DNA from: Promethearchaeota archaeon
GTDB lineage: Archaea > Asgardarchaeota > Lokiarchaeia > Sigyniarchaeales > SOKP01
Reading direction: 5' to 3'
Length of the DNA: 64,000 nt
NCBI GenBank assembly: GCA_019057865.1
Contig: JAHLWP010000002.1
Coordinates: 33,293 to 97,292 of the forward strand
Shown here in pieces: positions 26,538 through 29,113 of this stretch. Every line of letters starts with the position of its first letter. The stretch's first letter is position 1. A model generated the notes under the pieces. It saw only the letters and a list, made by a program, of their open reading frames with translations, had not been told where the DNA came from and did not search any database. The translations under genes were made by a program, and so were the position numbers.

Positions 26538-26903
26538 ATGGGATTTGATGAAGAATTTGATGAGGATTTAGATGAAGATTTAGAAGAACCTTCTGCAAAG
26601 ACTCCTGCTGAAGATGTTAAATCTAAAACTCCTGTAGCCAAAGCTGTTCCTGCAGGAAAAAAGATTTCAGTGTATTTTATGTCAACTATAGGACCGGGTG
26701 AGAAAAAACAAAAATTACTTGTAAATACAGGAAACAATGTTGGAGATATTAAAGAAACTGTAGCAAACTTATTTGGTTTAGATCCAGCTGATTTTCATTT
26801 ATCTTCAGGTGGAGTTACCATGGATGAGAGTTTAACTTTAAATGATTATAACGTAGCTGATGGAGATGATATACTTTTAATTCCAGCAAGTACTGCTGGT
26901 TAA
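26538..26903 (+). CDS. Ubiquitin-fold modifier 1 (beta-grasp, ends ...LIPASTAG-stop) with acidic/Lys-Pro-Ala-rich N-terminal extension
   Basis: GDIKETVANLFGLDPADFHLSSGGVTMDESLTLNDYNVADGDDILLI aligns with ubiquitin [52 protein letters not shown] SD-like element lies upstream. Confidence 0.8.
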   Translation: MGFDEEFDEDLDEDLEEPSAKTPAEDVKSKTPVAKAVPAGKKISVYFMSTIGPGEKKQKLLVNTGNNVGDIKETVANLFGLDPADFHLSSGGVTMDESLTLNDYNVADGDDILLIPASTAG

Positions 26904-26949
26904 ACATAATGGAAAAAAATAAAGAGTTTTAAAATAAGAACCCCTTTTT

Positions 26950-27744
26950 TTAATTCTTTTCTTTTCTTGAGGGAATAAGAGCAATTTCATCATCATCTTC
27001 AATACTATAATCTTTTATATGTGAGTTTTCATCTAATAATATGCCTCCAGAGGATAAAAGAAAATCTTTGAGATTGTAATCAAATAATATTCCGACTCTT
27101 TCTTTAACTGTACTTATTAATTCGGTTGTATCGATTATAATTATATTTGTTTTTTCACCTGGCTTAACTAATGATCTTAGATAAACCCGGATCTGGTCTT
27201 CTATTTCAATAGGATTCATAGGCGGTGTATATATTATCTCCCCATCAATTCTATCTCTGTTTTTTAACATATTTTTGATTAAAATTTTTCTCTCAGTTGC
27301 ATCAAAATATAACATTTCCCTGATAAACATTATCTTATCCATTTTTGATAATCCTAAAAAGTTTATTTTATCTAATTCTTCCTGACTAAATACTGTAAAA
27401 ATATATTTGTTAATTACCTCTATATTTTCATAGGATTTATCTGATTCAACATATACTTTTATTGAAGGCATGGTATTAATATAATCTGCAATAATATCAG
27501 CAATTTTCTTCTTAATCGCCTTTGGTTTTGCAACATATTTTTTTTCTCTTAATCTTTCATCCTGGGTACCTTTTGACTGTATAACTGTATAGATGGTACT
27601 AGTGGATAGTACTGCAACACTACCAATAGTTAGAAAGAGAAATAAAGGAGTACTTTCTATACGGAATAGGAAAAAAAGAATATAAATCAAAATAAAAAAA
27701 GAATAAAGAGTTATAACAATTAAAACGCTATATTTTTTCCTCAT
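26950..27744 (-). CDS. Membrane-anchored protein (2 N-terminal TM helices) with C-terminal ubiquitin-like domain, no terminal Gly
   Basis: The C-terminus IIIIDTTELISTVKERVGILFDYNLKDFLLSSGGILLDENSHIKDYSIEDDDEIALIPSRKEKN is collinear with the two free UBLs. Confidence 0.6.
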   Translation of the reverse strand: MRKKYSVLIVITLYSFFILIYILFFLFRIESTPLFLFLTIGSVAVLSTSTIYTVIQSKGTQDERLREKKYVAKPKAIKKKIADIIADYINTMPSIKVYVESDKSYENIEVINKYIFTVFSQEELDKINFLGLSKMDKIMFIREMLYFDATERKILIKNMLKNRDRIDGEIIYTPPMNPIEIEDQIRVYLRSLVKPGEKTNIIIIDTTELISTVKERVGILFDYNLKDFLLSSGGILLDENSHIKDYSIEDDDEIALIPSRKEKN

Positions 27745-27841
27745 AATCTTTTAATAAAGTTATTTTCTGAATCTCTAATATATAAGTTAAAATATAAATT
27801 CCATTGGAATAAATTTGAAGTTTTTTTTATATTTATACACC

Positions 27842-28504
27842 TTAAATTGATTTTTTAATCTTAGAATATTTATCTGCGTCTAATTTGAATAAAATTCTAT
27901 TTTTATCTTTTTCAATTTTTATTAACTTCAGATTTTTTAAAACATCTAAATATTTTTTAATAGTTTGGTGATTTTTTTTCAAGTTAATTGCTATTTCTGT
28001 AATTTTTAATGCTTTATTTTCTTTCTTCATAAAATTAATTATTTTTTGAACGATATCTTTGTTTAAATAAAAATAAAGTTCGTCAAGTTCTGGATTTGAA
28101 TCAAATTTGAAGAAAATTCTATGATTATTGATTTTTTTTGAACGAACAAATTGAAATTTTTCTAGACATGATAAATGCCATAAAACTTGATTACTTCCTA
28201 TGTTTAGAGTTTTCATTATTTTATTAATATTTGAAGGATTCCTTTTAATGTAATTAAAGATTTCATTCCTTTTTGGATGATCAATAATATTATTTTTCAT
28301 CAATCTAGTTCCAGGGATAATGATATGCCTTTTAATTAAATCCTTTAAGATTAACTCTATTCTATTCTCATTTATATTAGGATTGTATCTCACCCTATTA
28401 TTTATAAATGATATAACTTCTTTAATTGAGAAGAAAGTTTTTTTTGTTAAATACTCTCTTACTAATTCAAGAACAACAGATTCTGCACTATCCAGAATAC
28501 TCAT
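27842..28504 (-). CDS. Protein made of tandem winged-helix domains (ArsR-like regulator candidate)
   Basis: Repeated wH-like segments, e.g. INKIMKTLNIGSNQVLWHLSCLEKFQFVRS and LKITEIAINLKKNHQTIKKYLDVLKNLKLIKIE. Confidence 0.5.
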   Translation of the reverse strand: MSILDSAESVVLELVREYLTKKTFFSIKEVISFINNRVRYNPNINENRIELILKDLIKRHIIIPGTRLMKNNIIDHPKRNEIFNYIKRNPSNINKIMKTLNIGSNQVLWHLSCLEKFQFVRSKKINNHRIFFKFDSNPELDELYFYLNKDIVQKIINFMKKENKALKITEIAINLKKNHQTIKKYLDVLKNLKLIKIEKDKNRILFKLDADKYSKIKKSI

Positions 28505-28780
28505 AAGCCTATACTTTCACTACGTTAATATATCTGGTTTTTATATTATGTATTCTCTCTAGAACAATAATTTATACCTTATATATATTAATAGGCATTC
28601 ATACAATTTATAATATAATTTCCTAAGAATCCTAATGAGGTTCTTTTTATTTTTGATACAACCTTGAAAAACTTCAAAATCATTCCAATGGGTTTTATAA
28701 TATCTTTTTAATGCCATTTTATTAAGTTTAAAAAAATAAAAAATTACAAAATTAAAAAAAAAAATATGGATGTGATGTGA

Positions 28781-29113
28781 ATGAGTTTTGATGAATTTGA
28801 TGAGGATTTAGGTGGAGAAGAACCAGTAAAATCTAAGACTCCAGCAGCTAAAACTCCTTCAGCAGGAAAGAAATTGACTTTATATTTCATGTCAACTATT
28901 GGTCCTGGTGAAAAGAAAGAAAAATTAATTGTGAATGATGCTAATCGTGTAAGCGATATTAAGCAAACATTAGGAAATTTATATGGACTTGACCCTAATG
29001 ACTTTCATATATCCTCTGGTGGAGTTACAATGGATGAAAATAGTCAATTAAAAGACTATAATGTAAGTGATGGCGACGATATTCTTTTGATCCCTGCGAG
29101 TACTGCTGGATAA
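28781..29113 (+). CDS. Ubiquitin-fold modifier 2 (paralog; ends ...LIPASTAG-stop)
   Basis: Shows about three-quarters nucleotide identity by eye to 26538-26903. Shares YFMSTIGPGEKK, FHxSSGGVTMDE, DYNV and the identical C-terminal LLIPASTAG. Confidence 0.8.
   Translation: MSFDEFDEDLGGEEPVKSKTPAAKTPSAGKKLTLYFMSTIGPGEKKEKLIVNDANRVSDIKQTLGNLYGLDPNDFHISSGGVTMDENSQLKDYNVSDGDDILLIPASTAG

What the first reader, a model, noticed from the sequence alone, without database searches (positions are those of the whole stretch)
26538..29113. Two paralogous modifiers end in Ala-Gly directly at the stop codon and carry a ~40-aa acidic/KPA-rich N-terminal extension
Both UBLs terminate ...DDILLIPASTAG-stop, and the nucleotide tail agtactgctgg(t/a)taa is conserved. 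They therefore have an exposed terminal Gly but no Gly-Gly, and no C-terminal propeptide that JAMM would need to trim. That differs from ubiquitin, NEDD8 and SAMPs (Gly-Gly) and resembles single-Gly UBLs such as ATG8, ATG12 and UFM1. Both also begin with an acidic run (MGFDEEFDEDLDEDLEE / MSFDEFDEDLGGEE) followed by a Lys/Pro/Ala-rich stretch before the beta-grasp starts at about (K)KI/LxxYFMST. Ubiquitin lacks any such extension. One paralog is monocistronic and convergent with the membrane UBL gene. The other heads the enzyme operon.
Basis: seen in the sequence. Interest (0 to 1): 0.7.

Follow-up and report, generated by a model that had tools for sequence, protein, structure and literature searches.

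The report
Asgard ubiquitin-like modifiers ending Ala-Gly
Two small ubiquitin-like proteins beside an E1-E2-deubiquitinase-RING gene cluster of a Lokiarchaeia-type archaeon belong to a large conserved family that always ends in Ala-Gly and carries a disordered N-terminal tail, and this family is different from the Gly-Gly "Loki ubiquitin" studied so far.

Summary
UBL1 (26538-26903) and UBL2 (28781-29113) are 69% identical, and both end ...LLIPASTAG-stop. Both start with an acidic Phe/Asp/Glu block followed by a Lys/Pro/Ala stretch.

This is a family trait, not an assembly quirk. All 127 family genes found in 80 related genome loci end in x-Ala-Gly, and none ends Gly-Gly. Across 50 orthologs the last seven codons carry no amino-acid change, although synonymous sites differ in 63% of comparisons.

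- Many relatives carry 1-7 extra residues after Ala-Gly. A few are head-to-tail poly-UBLs, so cleavage after Ala-Gly is part of the family's biology.
- The E1 resembles canonical E1s (SUMO, ubiquitin and NEDD8 type), not UBA5 or ATG7. The likeness to ATG8, ATG12 and UFM1 is therefore analogy only.
- The same lineage also has a short Gly-Gly ubiquitin (the Lokiarch_37670 family) at unlinked loci, and a second E1/E2 pair.

I read UBL1 and UBL2 as conjugatable modifiers of a distinct Asgard UBL class served by the adjacent enzymes. The function of the N-terminal tail is unknown. I rate this a new variant of a known kind, of moderate to high interest.

The parts
26538..26903 (+). UBL1, a 121-aa Ala-Gly-terminated ubiquitin-like modifier. 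It stands alone and is convergent with the membrane UBL gene.
   Evidence: ORF. Pfam ubiquitin PF00240, 26.1 bits against a cut-off of 25.4. 69% identical to UBL2. Orthologs occupy the same position in related loci.
26541..26588 (+). UBL1 acidic/aromatic block (residues 2-17, GFDEEFDEDLDEDLEE).
   Evidence: Sequence. UBL1 orthologs carry 2-5 tandem (D/E)EFD units here.
26589..26663 (+). UBL1 Lys/Pro/Ala-rich linker (residues 18-42) containing the VKSKTP motif.
   Evidence: Sequence. The [IV]KSKTP motif recurs across the family, including in fusion proteins.
26880..26900 (+). UBL1 C-terminal tail IPASTAG (residues 115-121). The stop codon is at 26901-26903.
   Evidence: Sequence. Ala-Gly is invariant in the family.
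26950..27744 (-). Membrane-anchored UBL-domain protein (264 aa). It has one N-terminal TM segment and a C-terminal UBL domain that ends ...ALIPSRKEKN with no glycine, so it cannot be conjugated.
   Evidence: ORF. Pfam ubiquitin 25.1 bits. TM segment at residues 4-22. Syntenic in related loci. It has its own family whose members end IP[SKL]RK....
27842..28504 (-). Protein with two winged helix-turn-helix domains (ArsR/HTH_5-like), divergent from UBL2. It is probably a local transcription regulator.
   Evidence: Pfam HTH_5 at 3.1e-07 and HrcA_DNA-bdg at 1.4e-06. Syntenic in related loci.
28781..29113 (+). UBL2, a 110-aa Ala-Gly-terminated ubiquitin-like modifier located just upstream of E1.
   Evidence: ORF. 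The AF2 model shows a beta-grasp over residues 31-105 with pLDDT about 87-90. The best structural match is Caldiarchaeum ubiquitin 6FNO_D/6FJ7. 862 homologs were found.
28784..28822 (+). UBL2 acidic/aromatic block (residues 2-14, SFDEFDEDLGGEE).
   Evidence: F3, E5, F6, D7, E8 and L10 are invariant or nearly so in close homologs. dN/dS is 0.22. pLDDT is below 50.
28823..28873 (+). UBL2 Lys/Pro/Ala linker (residues 15-31) with VKSKTP. It holds lysines K17, K19, K24, K30 and K31.
   Evidence: S18, K19, T20, P21 and K24 are invariant. dN/dS is 0.14.
29090..29110 (+). UBL2 C-terminal tail IPASTAG (residues 104-110). The stop codon is at 29111-29113.
   Evidence: dN=0 and pS=0.63 among 50 orthologs. 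G110 aligns with Ub G76.
29146..29182 (+). Conserved GC hairpin (29146-29162) followed by a T9-A-T7 run (29166-29182) between UBL2 and E1. It looks like a terminator or attenuator.
   Evidence: Terminator-like hit. Present in all 41 operon spacers examined, with little covariation.
29206..30429 (+). E1-like activating enzyme (407 aa; an alternative ATG lies at 29194). Motifs: GVGGLG at residues 43-48, zinc-site CYEC at 175-178 and CSQC at 320-323, and a putative catalytic Cys192 in AACT.
   Evidence: Pfam ThiF 2.4e-58. The closest solved sequences are SAE2, UBA7, UBA1 and UBA3, and Cys192 aligns with the Cys of the FPGCT motif in SAE2. In several orthologs 29194 is TTG while GGTG is kept, so GGTG is probably a Shine-Dalgarno site for the 29206 start.
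30534..31061 (+). E2 (UBC fold, 175 aa) with HPN at residues 82-84 and a putative catalytic Cys99.
   Evidence: Pfam UQ_con 5.5e-25. The closest solved E2s are Ubc15 and Cdc34/UBE2R. It is the ortholog of Lokiarch_29330.
31042..31878 (+). Rpn11-like JAMM/MPN+ metalloprotease (278 aa) with an intact HSHPx7SxxD motif at residues 183-196. Its ORF overlaps the E2 ORF by 20 nt.
   Evidence: Pfam JAB 7.3e-15. The closest solved protein is Caldiarchaeum CsRpn11 (6FJU/6FJV, 3.6e-17).
31908..33077 (+). Polytopic membrane protein (about 5 TM segments) with a Ser/Thr/Arg-rich linker and a C-terminal Cys-rich finger (CIFC...CPRC...H...CSRC). It is a candidate RING-like E3.
   Evidence: ORF. TM segments and CxxC positions. 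Only weak similarity to the RING-H2 protein EL5 (1IYM, E=0.17). Syntenic in related loci.

Best explanation
UBL1 and UBL2 are conjugatable ubiquitin-type modifiers of a distinct Asgard family. Each unit has four parts: an acidic/aromatic motif, a [IV]KSKTP Lys/Pro-rich linker, a beta-grasp domain, and the tail [LIV][IL]P-x-S-T-A-G.

In this genome both are made in mature form, with Gly already at the C-terminus. The proposed pathway is inferred from homology and gene context:
1. The adjacent canonical-type E1 adenylates the terminal Gly and forms a thioester on Cys192.
2. The modifier passes to E2 Cys99.
3. It is ligated to lysines, probably at the membrane, with help from the polytopic RING-like protein.
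4. The Rpn11-like JAMM reverses conjugation.

In relatives the same JAMM would also cut precursors after Ala-Gly. These precursors carry 1-7-residue extensions, are head-to-tail poly-UBLs, or have the UBL embedded in larger proteins.

The N-terminal extension is a disordered part of the mature modifier, because every repeat of the poly-UBL precursors carries its own copy. I infer that it supplies acceptor lysines or a docking motif, much as the SUMO/Smt3 N-terminal tail does. The canonical Ub K48 and K63 positions are not lysines in this family.

The Ala-Gly family coexists in Lokiarchaeia with an unlinked Gly-Gly ubiquitin and a second E1/E2 pair. The operon therefore most likely forms a pathway dedicated to the Ala-Gly modifiers.
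For: Shown directly:
- Ubiquitin-type fold. AF2 gives pLDDT about 87-90 for residues 31-105, and the best Foldseek hits are Caldiarchaeum ubiquitin at 1.6 A rmsd.
- The tail is in register with ubiquitin's.
- Ala-Gly is invariant, with dN=0 in the tail.
- The active-site motifs of E1, E2 and JAMM are intact.
- Gene order is conserved. The order NTase, coiled coil, UBL1, membrane UBL, wHTH, UBL2, E1, E2, JAMM, TM-RING recurs across the fetched loci, and 54 of 80 have E1 downstream of UBL2.
- The same UBL-UBL-E1-E2-JAB order occurs on a contig labelled Hodarchaeales. There one paralog ends HSTAG-stop and the other ends PVSTAG-LL.
- Precursor forms exist: P0121 (3 units), P0122 (2 units) and the P0141 junction ...STAG|AGGDDFEDFDD, plus C-terminal extensions in 16/127 genes and 24/45 representatives.
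- The N-terminal extension is under purifying selection and is repeated in each poly-UBL unit.
- The Gly-Gly ubiquitin family is separate. It is 26% identical, absent from the window and from all 80 loci, and has no E1/E2 neighbours in three genomes.
- A second E2 type and a second E1 exist, the E1 being 28% identical to this one.

From the literature: the closest solved homolog, CsRpn11, both matures and deconjugates CsUb (PMC6043591).
Against: - No biochemical or proteomic data exist for this family. Activation of an Ala-Gly terminus by this E1 is untested.
- In the closest characterised system, CsRpn11 processed the penultimate Gly77Ala mutant of CsUb much more slowly than Gly78Ala (PMC6043591). 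An Ala at position -2 could therefore hinder JAMM action unless the enzyme has co-adapted.
- UBL2 falls just below the Pfam ubiquitin threshold (23.4 against 25.4 bits).
- The E3 assignment is weak (E=0.17).
- Assigning this E1/E2 to the Ala-Gly modifiers rather than to the Gly-Gly ubiquitin rests on gene linkage alone.
- Co-occurrence of both UBL classes in one genome was shown only indirectly, for Lokiarchaeum GC14_75, through Lokiarch_37670 and the E2 ortholog Lokiarch_29330.
- The role of the N-terminal extension is inferred, and AF2 shows no docking of the tail onto the domain.
Confidence: 0.7

Rival explanations
1. Shared-enzyme model. The operon's E1/E2/JAMM mainly serve the orphan Gly-Gly ubiquitin (Lokiarch_37670 family). 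The Ala-Gly paralogs would be secondary or regulatory substrates, for example slowly activated or slowly removed variants that tune flux or cap chains.
For: The Gly-Gly ubiquitin has no enzymes of its own nearby in three genomes. The two tails are similar (ATQAGG against ASTAG). Gly-to-Ala at the penultimate position slows the closest characterised JAMM.
Against: The Ala-Gly genes are tightly and widely linked to the enzymes, whereas the Gly-Gly gene never is. A second E1/E2 pair exists that could serve the Gly-Gly ubiquitin. The Ala-Gly family shows very strong purifying selection and has 2-3 paralogs per genome.
Confidence: 0.15
2. UBL1 and UBL2 are never conjugated. They would be non-covalent ubiquitin-fold adaptors or regulators of the E1/E2, comparable to type-2 UBL-domain proteins or membrane-anchored MUBs.
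For: A clearly non-conjugatable paralog, the membrane UBL ending SRKEKN, lies in the same cluster. The family domain is also found fused to the C-terminus of larger proteins such as HerA-like ATPases, CDC48_N+VWA proteins and Roadblock proteins.
Against: The flexible tail ending in Gly is invariant at exactly ubiquitin's tail length, with dN=0. Non-conjugated UBL domains such as the membrane paralog lose this tail. Precursor and poly-UBL forms only make sense if the Gly carboxylate must be exposed.
Confidence: 0.08
3. The proteins are sulfur carriers of the MoaD/ThiS/SAMP/Urm1 type. The ThiF-family enzyme would activate them for thiocarboxylate formation, not for protein modification.
For: The E1 also matches MoeB and ThiF (E about 1e-33 to 1e-27). 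One source annotated the poly-UBL P0121 as 'molybdopterin converting factor small subunit'.
Against: The fold and sequence are ubiquitin-type, with Caldiarchaeum ubiquitin as the best match. E2, Rpn11-like JAMM and RING-like genes are in the operon. The E1 shows no rhodanese domain. Sulfur carriers end Gly-Gly.
Confidence: 0.04
4. The finding is an annotation or assembly artefact. The true start would lie downstream so that the extension is not translated, or the stop after Ala-Gly would be an error.
For: The proteins come from uncultured MAG-type sequence. An internal Met exists in ...YFMST...
Against: The extension is conserved at protein level (dN/dS 0.14-0.22). It is present in 82 of the 120 closest homologs as MSFDEFDE and is embedded in each unit of the poly-UBLs. 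Starting at the internal Met would delete the first beta-strand. The stop directly follows Ala-Gly in 111 of 127 independent genes, using TAA, TAG or TGA.
Confidence: 0.02

Closest known systems
Caldiarchaeum subterraneum ubiquitin system (CsUb, E1, E2, small RING finger, CsRpn11; PMC5654768, PMC6043591)
   Same: It has the same operon logic: UBL, E1, E2, an Rpn11-like JAMM and a RING-like protein. CsUb is the best structural match to UBL2 and CsRpn11 is the best solved match to the JAMM. One JAMM acts as both maturase and deconjugase.
   Different: CsUb ends Gly-Gly followed by a 9-residue propeptide and has no N-terminal extension. Here the tail is Ala-Gly-stop with a 30-40-aa disordered N-terminal tail and two or three paralogs. 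The RING-like protein is a polytopic membrane protein, and a membrane UBL and a wHTH regulator are part of the cluster.
Asgard Gly-Gly ubiquitins (Lokiarch_37670 'Loki Ub' in PMC9192718; Helarchaeia pro-ubiquitin GG-SPKN in bioRxiv 10.1101/2023.07.25.550441)
   Same: They occur in the same lineage, share the beta-grasp fold and have a similar tail context (ATQAGG against ASTAG). Short C-terminal extensions are common in both families.
   Different: They are only 26% identical to UBL2. They are 83-88 aa long with no N-terminal extension and end Gly-Gly (97 of 120 end MATQAGG). They are orphan genes without neighbouring enzymes in three genomes. They have been used in ESCRT/UEV binding studies, whereas I found no study of the Ala-Gly family.
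SUMO/Smt3
   Same: SUMO has a disordered, charged, Lys-rich N-terminal tail ahead of the beta-grasp, and that tail carries the chain-forming lysines (general knowledge). The SUMO E1 subunit SAE2 is the top solved match of the E1. Weak Pfam hits to Rad60-SLD were also seen.
   Different: SUMO ends Gly-Gly after processing by Cys proteases and uses a heterodimeric E1. The UBLs score better against ubiquitin than against SUMO in Pfam and Foldseek. This family is not a member of the SUMO family.
ATG12, ATG8 and UFM1 (single-Gly UBLs)
   Same: They have a single C-terminal Gly preceded by a non-Gly residue. ATG12 is also made with the Gly already exposed and has a long disordered N-terminus (general knowledge; PMC10606595 appeared).
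   Different: They use the non-canonical E1s ATG7 and UBA5. Here the E1 is of the canonical type, and no ATG8, ATG12 or UFM1 Pfam family is hit. The likeness is analogy, not homology.
Bacterial BilABCD ubiquitination-like operons (PMC10557695)
   Same: These are prokaryotic operons encoding Ubl, E1, E2 and a JAB protease. The JAB enzyme removes a short C-terminal extension to expose a reactive Gly (Gly97 before Ala98).
   Different: They are bacterial antiphage systems. Their E1 has inactive-plus-active adenylation-domain architecture and lacks a UFD. They have no N-terminal acidic/KSKTP tail and no RING-like protein.
Eukaryotic polyubiquitin genes
   Same: P0121 and P0122 are head-to-tail repeats that end with a short extra peptide (VL, IY). 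This mirrors polyubiquitin precursors, which need cleavage after the terminal Gly.
   Different: Each repeat includes its own 40-50-aa N-terminal extension. The junction is Ala-Gly|X, not Gly-Gly|Met. These forms are found in a subfamily other than the one in the window.

Membership tests
Ubiquitin family / type-1 ubiquitin-like modifiers (Pfam PF00240) | Ubiquitin-type beta-grasp fold | tested here: met
   AF2 pLDDT is about 87-90 over residues 31-105. Foldseek hits to Caldiarchaeum ubiquitin, ubiquitin, ISG15, SUMO1 and NEDD8 have probability 1.00, target-normalised TM-score 0.77-0.88 and rmsd about 1.6 A.
Ubiquitin family / type-1 ubiquitin-like modifiers (Pfam PF00240) | Score above the Pfam gathering threshold (25.4 bits) | tested here: inconclusive
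   UBL1 scores 26.1 bits (passes) and UBL2 scores 23.4 bits (just fails).
Ubiquitin family / type-1 ubiquitin-like modifiers (Pfam PF00240) | C-terminal Gly-Gly motif | tested here: not met
   The tail is Ala-Gly in both genes. It is also Ala-Gly in 127 of 127 family genes in related loci and in all 45 distant representatives matching the tail pattern.
Ubiquitin family / type-1 ubiquitin-like modifiers (Pfam PF00240) | Flexible tail ending in an exposed or exposable Gly at ubiquitin's position 76 | tested here: met
   UBL2 residues 49-101 align with Ub 15-67, so G110 corresponds to G76. The stop codon follows directly.
Ubiquitin family / type-1 ubiquitin-like modifiers (Pfam PF00240) | ATP-dependent activation by E1, thioester transfer to E2, and an isopeptide bond to a target | not testable with these tools
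   Only gene context and intact catalytic motifs are available.
Archaeal eukaryote-like ubiquitin operon (Caldiarchaeum/Asgard type) | Clustered genes for UBL, E1, E2 and an Rpn11-like JAMM | tested here: met
   Pfam and PDB matches. E1 lies downstream of UBL2 in 54 of 80 loci, and the same order occurs in L081.
Archaeal eukaryote-like ubiquitin operon (Caldiarchaeum/Asgard type) | RING-type E3 in the cluster | tested here: inconclusive
   The C-terminal Cys-rich finger has three CxxC pairs plus one His. No Pfam RING family was hit at E<=0.1. There is only a weak match to the RING-H2 protein EL5 (E=0.17).
Archaeal eukaryote-like ubiquitin operon (Caldiarchaeum/Asgard type) | Modifier synthesised as a precursor with a C-terminal propeptide | tested here: not met
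   The two window genes have no propeptide. Relatives do: extensions of 1-7 aa, poly-UBLs, and PVSTAG-LL in L081.
ATG8 / ATG12 / UFM1 single-Gly UBL systems | Non-canonical E1 (ATG7 or UBA5 type) | tested here: not met
   The E1 matches SAE2, UBA7, UBA1 and UBA3 at E about 1e-36 to 1e-32 and UBA5 at only about 3e-14. No ATG7 appears in the list.
ATG8 / ATG12 / UFM1 single-Gly UBL systems | Sequence membership in the ATG8, APG12 or UFM1 families | tested here: not met
   Pfam at E<=0.1 returns only ubiquitin, UBL_USP40 and Rad60-SLD.
ATG8 / ATG12 / UFM1 single-Gly UBL systems | A single C-terminal Gly preceded by a non-Gly residue | tested here: met
   The tail is Ala-Gly. The feature is shared by analogy only.
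SAMP / Urm1 / MoaD-ThiS sulfur-carrier UBLs | Gly-Gly terminus, an E1 that works without an E2, and often an E1 with a rhodanese domain | tested here: not met
   The tail is Ala-Gly. E2 and RING-like genes are present. The E1 matches only ThiF and has a C-terminal region with no rhodanese hit.
SUMO | Disordered Lys-containing N-terminal tail ahead of the beta-grasp | tested here: met
   Residues 1-25 have pLDDT below 50. K17, K19, K24, K30 and K31 lie in the tail. This is analogy only.
SUMO | Sequence membership in the SUMO family (Rad60-SLD) and a Gly-Gly terminus | tested here: not met
   Rad60-SLD scores 15.9 bits against a cut-off of 23.8. The tail is Ala-Gly.

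The most novel reading that the evidence does not exclude
The Ala-Gly, N-terminally extended UBLs would be a second Asgard modifier pathway that works independently of the Gly-Gly ubiquitin. It would have its own E1, E2, Rpn11-like protease and membrane RING-like ligase. In that case the split of ubiquitin-like signalling into parallel pathways, as seen for ubiquitin versus SUMO or NEDD8 in eukaryotes, would predate eukaryotes. 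The disordered N-terminal tail would act as a built-in chain-acceptor and interaction module, combining conserved KSKTP lysines with an acidic, SIM-like F/L/I-D/E motif. Conjugates could then polymerise or self-associate. The same cleavable Ala-Gly module would have been reused as a C-terminal tag on ATPases and as a cleavage site inside polyproteins.
Probability: 0.3. Interest if true: 0.8.

Novelty: new variant of a known kind. Interest (0 to 1): 0.62.

Why it matters
1. Proteomics. Standard ubiquitin proteomics looks for a Lys-epsilon-Gly-Gly remnant. These modifiers would leave no such remnant. After trypsin, UBL2 would leave a 19-residue remnant (DYNVSDGDDILLIPASTAG, since its last Lys is K91) and UBL1 a 49-residue one. 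Conjugates in cultured Lokiarchaeia would be invisible to routine searches.

2. Choice of study object. The protein treated as 'Lokiarchaeal ubiquitin' in published ESCRT work (Lokiarch_37670) is an unlinked Gly-Gly gene. The modifiers that actually sit beside the E1-E2-deubiquitinase-RING operon are this different, unstudied family. That choice affects how Asgard ubiquitin biochemistry should be reconstituted.

3. Evolution. Two UBL classes together with at least two E1/E2 pairs in one archaeal lineage make the early diversification of UBL pathways directly testable.

4. Enzymology. The invariant Ala at position -2 is a natural experiment on why Gly-Gly is otherwise so strongly conserved.

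Tried and rejected
- A distant-member alignment (A1) could not seed the genome scan. A closer alignment (A2) worked.
- I suspected PDB entries 8HM1-3 ('putative ubiquitin') were Asgard proteins. 8HM2 is described as a Bacteroides fragilis ubiquitin-like protein.
- Literature searches for any mention of Ala-Gly or single-Gly termini in Asgard UBLs found nothing. The library is incomplete, so this is not proof of novelty.
- A search for G75A/G76A ubiquitin-E1 data gave no directly usable result. I therefore make no claim about E1 tolerance of Ala-Gly.
- The supplement of the MK-D1 ESCRT preprint does not say which ubiquitin gene was used.
- Covariation support for the UBL2-E1 hairpin is weak: 4 predicted pairs, 1 with a compensatory change. 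I describe it only as a conserved hairpin plus T-run.
- The third, orphan UBL2-like paralog has no ubiquitin-related neighbours. A bactofilin-like gene lies downstream, and I did not pursue it.
- I could not show from assembly accessions that the Gly-Gly gene and the Ala-Gly operon share one genome. Co-occurrence rests on Lokiarchaeum GC14_75 gene identifiers in the PMC9192718 supplement.
- Rejected explanations: ATG8/ATG12/UFM1 membership, a sulfur-carrier role, and a mis-called start codon. Reasons are given under the rivals and the membership tests.
- I did not try to map the CsRpn11 residues that contact Gly77 onto this JAMM, because the numbering offsets were uncertain.

Full report
**1. 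What is in the window**

Two plus-strand ORFs, 26538..26903 (UBL1, 121 aa) and 28781..29113 (UBL2, 110 aa), are 69% identical. Both end ...DGDDILLIPASTAG followed directly by TAA. Both start with an acidic, Phe-containing block (MGFDEEFDEDLDEDLEE and MSFDEFDEDLGGEE). A Lys/Pro/Ala-rich stretch containing VKSKTP follows.

Pfam places both at the edge of the ubiquitin family, at 26.1 and 23.4 bits against a cut-off of 25.4. An AlphaFold2 model of UBL2 has a confident beta-grasp over residues 31-105 (pLDDT about 87-90) and a disordered N-terminus (residues 1-25 below 50). Its best structural matches are the Caldiarchaeum subterraneum ubiquitin structures 6FNO_D and 6FJ7, followed by ubiquitin variants, ISG15, SUMO1 and NEDD8.

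In the phmmer alignment with ubiquitin, UBL2 residues 49-101 pair with Ub 15-67. The tail is therefore exactly ubiquitin-length, with G110 matching Ub G76 and A109 matching Ub G75. The extension is about 40 aa in UBL1 and about 30 aa in UBL2.

**2. Surroundings**

Downstream of UBL2, on the same strand, lie four genes.
- An E1 (ThiF family, 2.4e-58) with GVGGLG, zinc-site CYEC and CSQC motifs, and a Cys (AACT) that aligns with the Cys of the FPGCT motif in SAE2.
- An E2 (UQ_con) with HPN and Cys99.
- An Rpn11-like JAMM with an intact HSHPx7SxxD motif. Its closest solved relative is Caldiarchaeum CsRpn11.
- A polytopic membrane protein with a C-terminal Cys-rich finger that only weakly resembles a RING-H2 finger.

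These assignments rest.

Between the two UBL genes, on the minus strand, lie two more genes. One is a membrane-anchored UBL-domain protein that ends ...IPSRKEKN, with no Gly. The other is a protein with two winged helix-turn-helix domains.

The E1 is of the canonical type. Its best matches are SAE2, UBA7, UBA1 and UBA3 (E about 1e-36 to 1e-32), against about 3e-14 for UBA5.

**3. The Ala-Gly terminus is a family trait under extreme constraint**

A search of 5.8 billion proteins found 862 homologs. Of the 120 best, all from Promethearchaeota/Lokiarchaeia-type metagenome-assembled genomes, 113 end in Ala-Gly-stop. The other seven carry 2-4 further residues after ...STAG.

A scan of GTDB species genomes found 222 loci, of which 80 were fetched. 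In those 80 loci I found 127 family genes. 111 stop directly after Ala-Gly, 16 carry 1-7 extra residues, and none ends Gly-Gly. Position -3 varies (T, I or V), while A(-2) and G(-1) never vary.

Among 50 UBL2 orthologs the seven tail codons have no nonsynonymous difference, while synonymous sites are near saturation (pS 0.63). dN/dS is 0.06 for the beta-grasp, 0.14 for the Lys/Pro linker and 0.22 for the acidic block. The extension is therefore coding and constrained.

A search of 50%-identity cluster representatives extends the picture. All 45 representatives that match the tail pattern [LIVMF][LIVM]P-x-[ST]-x-A-G keep Ala-Gly. Of these, 18 stop there, 24 have 1-7 extra residues and 3 continue into more protein. 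Submitter labels on such members include Helarchaeota and Hodarchaeales as well as Promethearchaeota.

**4. Processing after Ala-Gly occurs in the family**

P0121 (372 aa) contains three head-to-tail units and P0122 (250 aa) contains two. Each unit consists of an acidic F/D/E motif, IKSKTP, the beta-grasp and IP(H/F)S(T/Q)AG. Junctions read ...STAG|ADDDFEDFDFDE..., and the proteins end with a short tail (VL or IY). A third fragment, P0141, shows the same kind of junction. These mirror eukaryotic polyubiquitin precursors.

On a contig labelled Hodarchaeales (L081), two paralogs precede E1-E2-JAB. One ends HSTAG-stop and the other ends PVSTAG-LL. Two large proteins, P0263 (719 aa) and P0199 (1395 aa), carry an internal ...LIPASTAG|A... 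domain.

Exposure of the Gly carboxylate by cleavage is therefore part of the family's biology. The operon-encoded Rpn11-like JAMM is the obvious candidate. Its closest characterised homolog, CsRpn11, both matures pro-CsUb and removes CsUb from conjugates (PMC6043591).

That paper also reports that the CsUb Gly77Ala mutant, which changes the penultimate residue, is processed much more slowly than Gly78Ala, and that Gly77Val is not processed at all. A natural, invariant Ala at position -2 therefore implies either a co-adapted protease pocket or deliberately slow removal.

Because every poly-UBL unit carries its own N-terminal extension, the extension belongs to the mature modifier. It is not a leader peptide.

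**5. Conserved gene neighbourhood**

In 54 of the 80 loci, E1 lies downstream of the UBL2 ortholog. Most of these loci show the full order: NTase(-), coiled coil(-), UBL1(+), membrane UBL(-), wHTH(-), UBL2(+), E1, E2, JAMM, TM-RING, GTP cyclohydrolase(-). The other 26 loci carry a third UBL2-like paralog (about 81-91% identical) elsewhere in the genome. In 11 of these loci, a bactofilin-like gene follows.

The UBL2-E1 spacer is strikingly conserved in 41 loci. It contains an A/T-rich TATA-like segment, a GGGC-loop-GCCC hairpin, T-runs (T9-A-T7 in the window), and GGTG ahead of the E1 start. Covariation is minimal. I read this as a terminator or attenuator that lets the modifier be made in excess over the enzymes. 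That reading is an inference.

**6. A separate Gly-Gly ubiquitin exists in the same lineage**

Supplementary Data 1 of Hatano et al. 2022 (PMC9192718) gives the 'Lokiarchaeota Ub' used for the ESCRT/UEV work. It is Lokiarch_37670, MTQYRF...VITVMATQAGG|ISIIH.

This protein is only 26% identical to UBL2 and has no N-terminal extension. It has no counterpart in the window or in any of the 80 Ala-Gly loci. Its family has 196 detectable members, including one in Candidatus Lokiarchaeum ossiferum. The tail is MATQAGG in 97 of the 120 listed. Twenty-five stop at Gly-Gly and 53 have one extra residue.

In three genomes the gene is an orphan with non-conserved neighbours and no E1, E2 or JAMM nearby.

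The same supplement lists three E2-like proteins in Lokiarchaeum GC14_75. Lokiarch_29330 is the ortholog of the window's E2, with HTPIWHPNFWPKPSEYKGQRNICLALVDPSLIGK differing at one residue from the window sequence. Lokiarch_10330 and Lokiarch_41800 are of a different type. A contig carrying the Lokiarch_10330-type E2 also encodes a second E1, 28% identical to the window's.

Lokiarchaeia thus have two UBL classes and at least two E1/E2 pairs. The Ala-Gly class is the one physically linked to an enzyme operon.

**7. Most likely mechanism**

Shown: the fold, the tail geometry, the invariance of Ala-Gly, the existence of precursor forms, the intact catalytic motifs, and the conserved linkage to the enzymes.

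Inferred: UBL1 and UBL2 are activated at Gly by the adjacent E1, passed to the E2, and attached to lysines with the help of the membrane RING-like protein. The JAMM removes them and, in relatives, matures them.

The N-terminal tail carries two conserved linear motifs.
- An acidic/aromatic block. In UBL2 it reads MSFDEFDEDL and is nearly invariant. UBL1 orthologs have 2-5 tandem (D/E)EFD units. Distant members read FEELELIEED or FDELEIEII, which resembles acidic SUMO-interaction motifs.
- [IV]KSKTP, placed 8-14 residues before the first beta-strand. It is retained even in fusion proteins that lack the acidic block.

Mapped through the ubiquitin alignment, Ub K48 and K63 correspond to V82 and D97. 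Lysines are instead concentrated in the tail (K17, K19, K24, K30, K31) and in the loop between the first two beta-strands. I therefore favour a SUMO-like role for the tail, as acceptor lysines or a docking motif. This is the weakest part of the account.

**8. Comparison with known systems and novelty**

The operon type (Caldiarchaeum/Asgard ubiquitin systems) is known. The existence of a 'Ub region' in Lokiarchaeota genomes is also published (PMC9192718).

I did not find the following in the searchable literature: the invariant Ala-Gly terminus, the N-terminal extension, the poly-UBL and fusion forms, or the fact that the enzyme-linked modifiers are a different family from the Gly-Gly 'Loki ubiquitin'.

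Single-Gly UBLs (ATG8, ATG12, UFM1) and the bacterial Bil Ubl are functional analogies only. The E1 type and the sequence family do not match them.

I class the finding as a new variant of a known kind. One practical consequence follows: diGly-remnant proteomics cannot detect these conjugates. The tryptic remnant would be 19 residues for UBL2 and 49 for UBL1.

Noticed in passing
window 26950-27744 (-): The membrane-anchored UBL-domain protein has a UBL domain 35-45% identical to UBL1/UBL2 but ends ...ALIPSRKEKN with no Gly. It forms its own conserved family (P0167, P0182, P0184, P0191, P0210, P0223) and is always convergent with UBL1. It recalls the eukaryotic membrane-anchored ubiquitin-fold (MUB) proteins that regulate E2s (PMC4996978).
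   Followed up: partly
window 29114-29205: The UBL2-E1 spacer is more conserved than synonymous coding sites in 41 genomes. It contains an A/T-rich TATA-like segment, a GGGC-loop-GCCC hairpin (29146-29162), a T9-A-T7 run (29166-29182), and GGTG before the ATG at 29206. It is probably a terminator or attenuator plus a ribosome-binding site. Covariation is almost absent.
   Followed up: partly
P0121, P0122, P0141 (metagenome proteins, contigs about 1.2 kb): These are natural head-to-tail poly-UBL precursors with 3 and 2 units. Each unit includes its own acidic and KSKTP extension, with junctions ...STAG|ADD.... Genomic context is unavailable because the contigs are short.
   Followed up: partly
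P0134, P0150/P0152, P0126, P0125-type proteins: The Ala-Gly-tailed UBL domain, preceded by the KSKTP linker, occurs as the C-terminal module of larger proteins. These include a HerA-like ATPase, a CDC48_N+VWA protein, a Roadblock/LC7 protein and a family with an N-terminal zinc ribbon (YNCPKCK). They would be whole proteins carrying a conjugatable end.
   Followed up: partly
P0263 (719 aa), P0199 (1395 aa): An Ala-Gly UBL domain is embedded inside large proteins with no other Pfam match, followed directly by ...LIPASTAG|A.... This arrangement resembles a polyprotein and might use the host JAMM as a cleavage enzyme. The origin (cellular or mobile element) is unknown.
   Followed up: no
L006, L009, L022, L023, L026-L028, L030, L045, L059 and others: A third UBL2-like paralog (about 81-91% identical, also MSFDEFDE...IPASTAG-stop) lies at an unrelated locus. 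In 11 loci, a bactofilin-like gene and a coiled-coil gene follow it.
   Followed up: partly
L082/L083 (L. ossiferum), L084, L087; Lokiarch_37670: The Gly-Gly 'Loki ubiquitin' family (...VITVMATQAGG plus or minus 0-1 residue) is an orphan gene with different neighbours in each genome and no ubiquitin enzymes nearby.
   Followed up: yes
L090 715-918 and 2743-3882: A second E2 type (Lokiarch_10330-like, here fragmented) lies near a second E1 paralog that is 28% identical to the window's E1. That E1 has a long insertion before its CxxC/catalytic-Cys region. A HAD hydrolase gene and an acyltransferase gene lie between them.
   Followed up: partly
window 31042-31061: The E2 and JAMM ORFs overlap by 20 nt, which suggests translational coupling.
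   Followed up: no
window 31908-33077: The candidate E3 has about 5 TM segments and an approximately 85-aa Ser/Thr/Arg/Pro-rich low-complexity linker. Its C-terminal finger reads CIFC-x16-CPRC-x4-H-x14-CSRC, which departs from the canonical RING spacing.
   Followed up: partly
window 22928-26337 (-): Three genes lie just upstream of UBL1: a PHP-like protein, a Pol-beta-type nucleotidyltransferase (24260-25309) and a 338-aa K/E-rich coiled-coil protein (25321-26337). The latter two are conserved at this position across the related loci. Any functional link to the UBL system is unknown. FtsZ (21198-22361) and AlaRS (14241-17204) lie further upstream.
   Followed up: no
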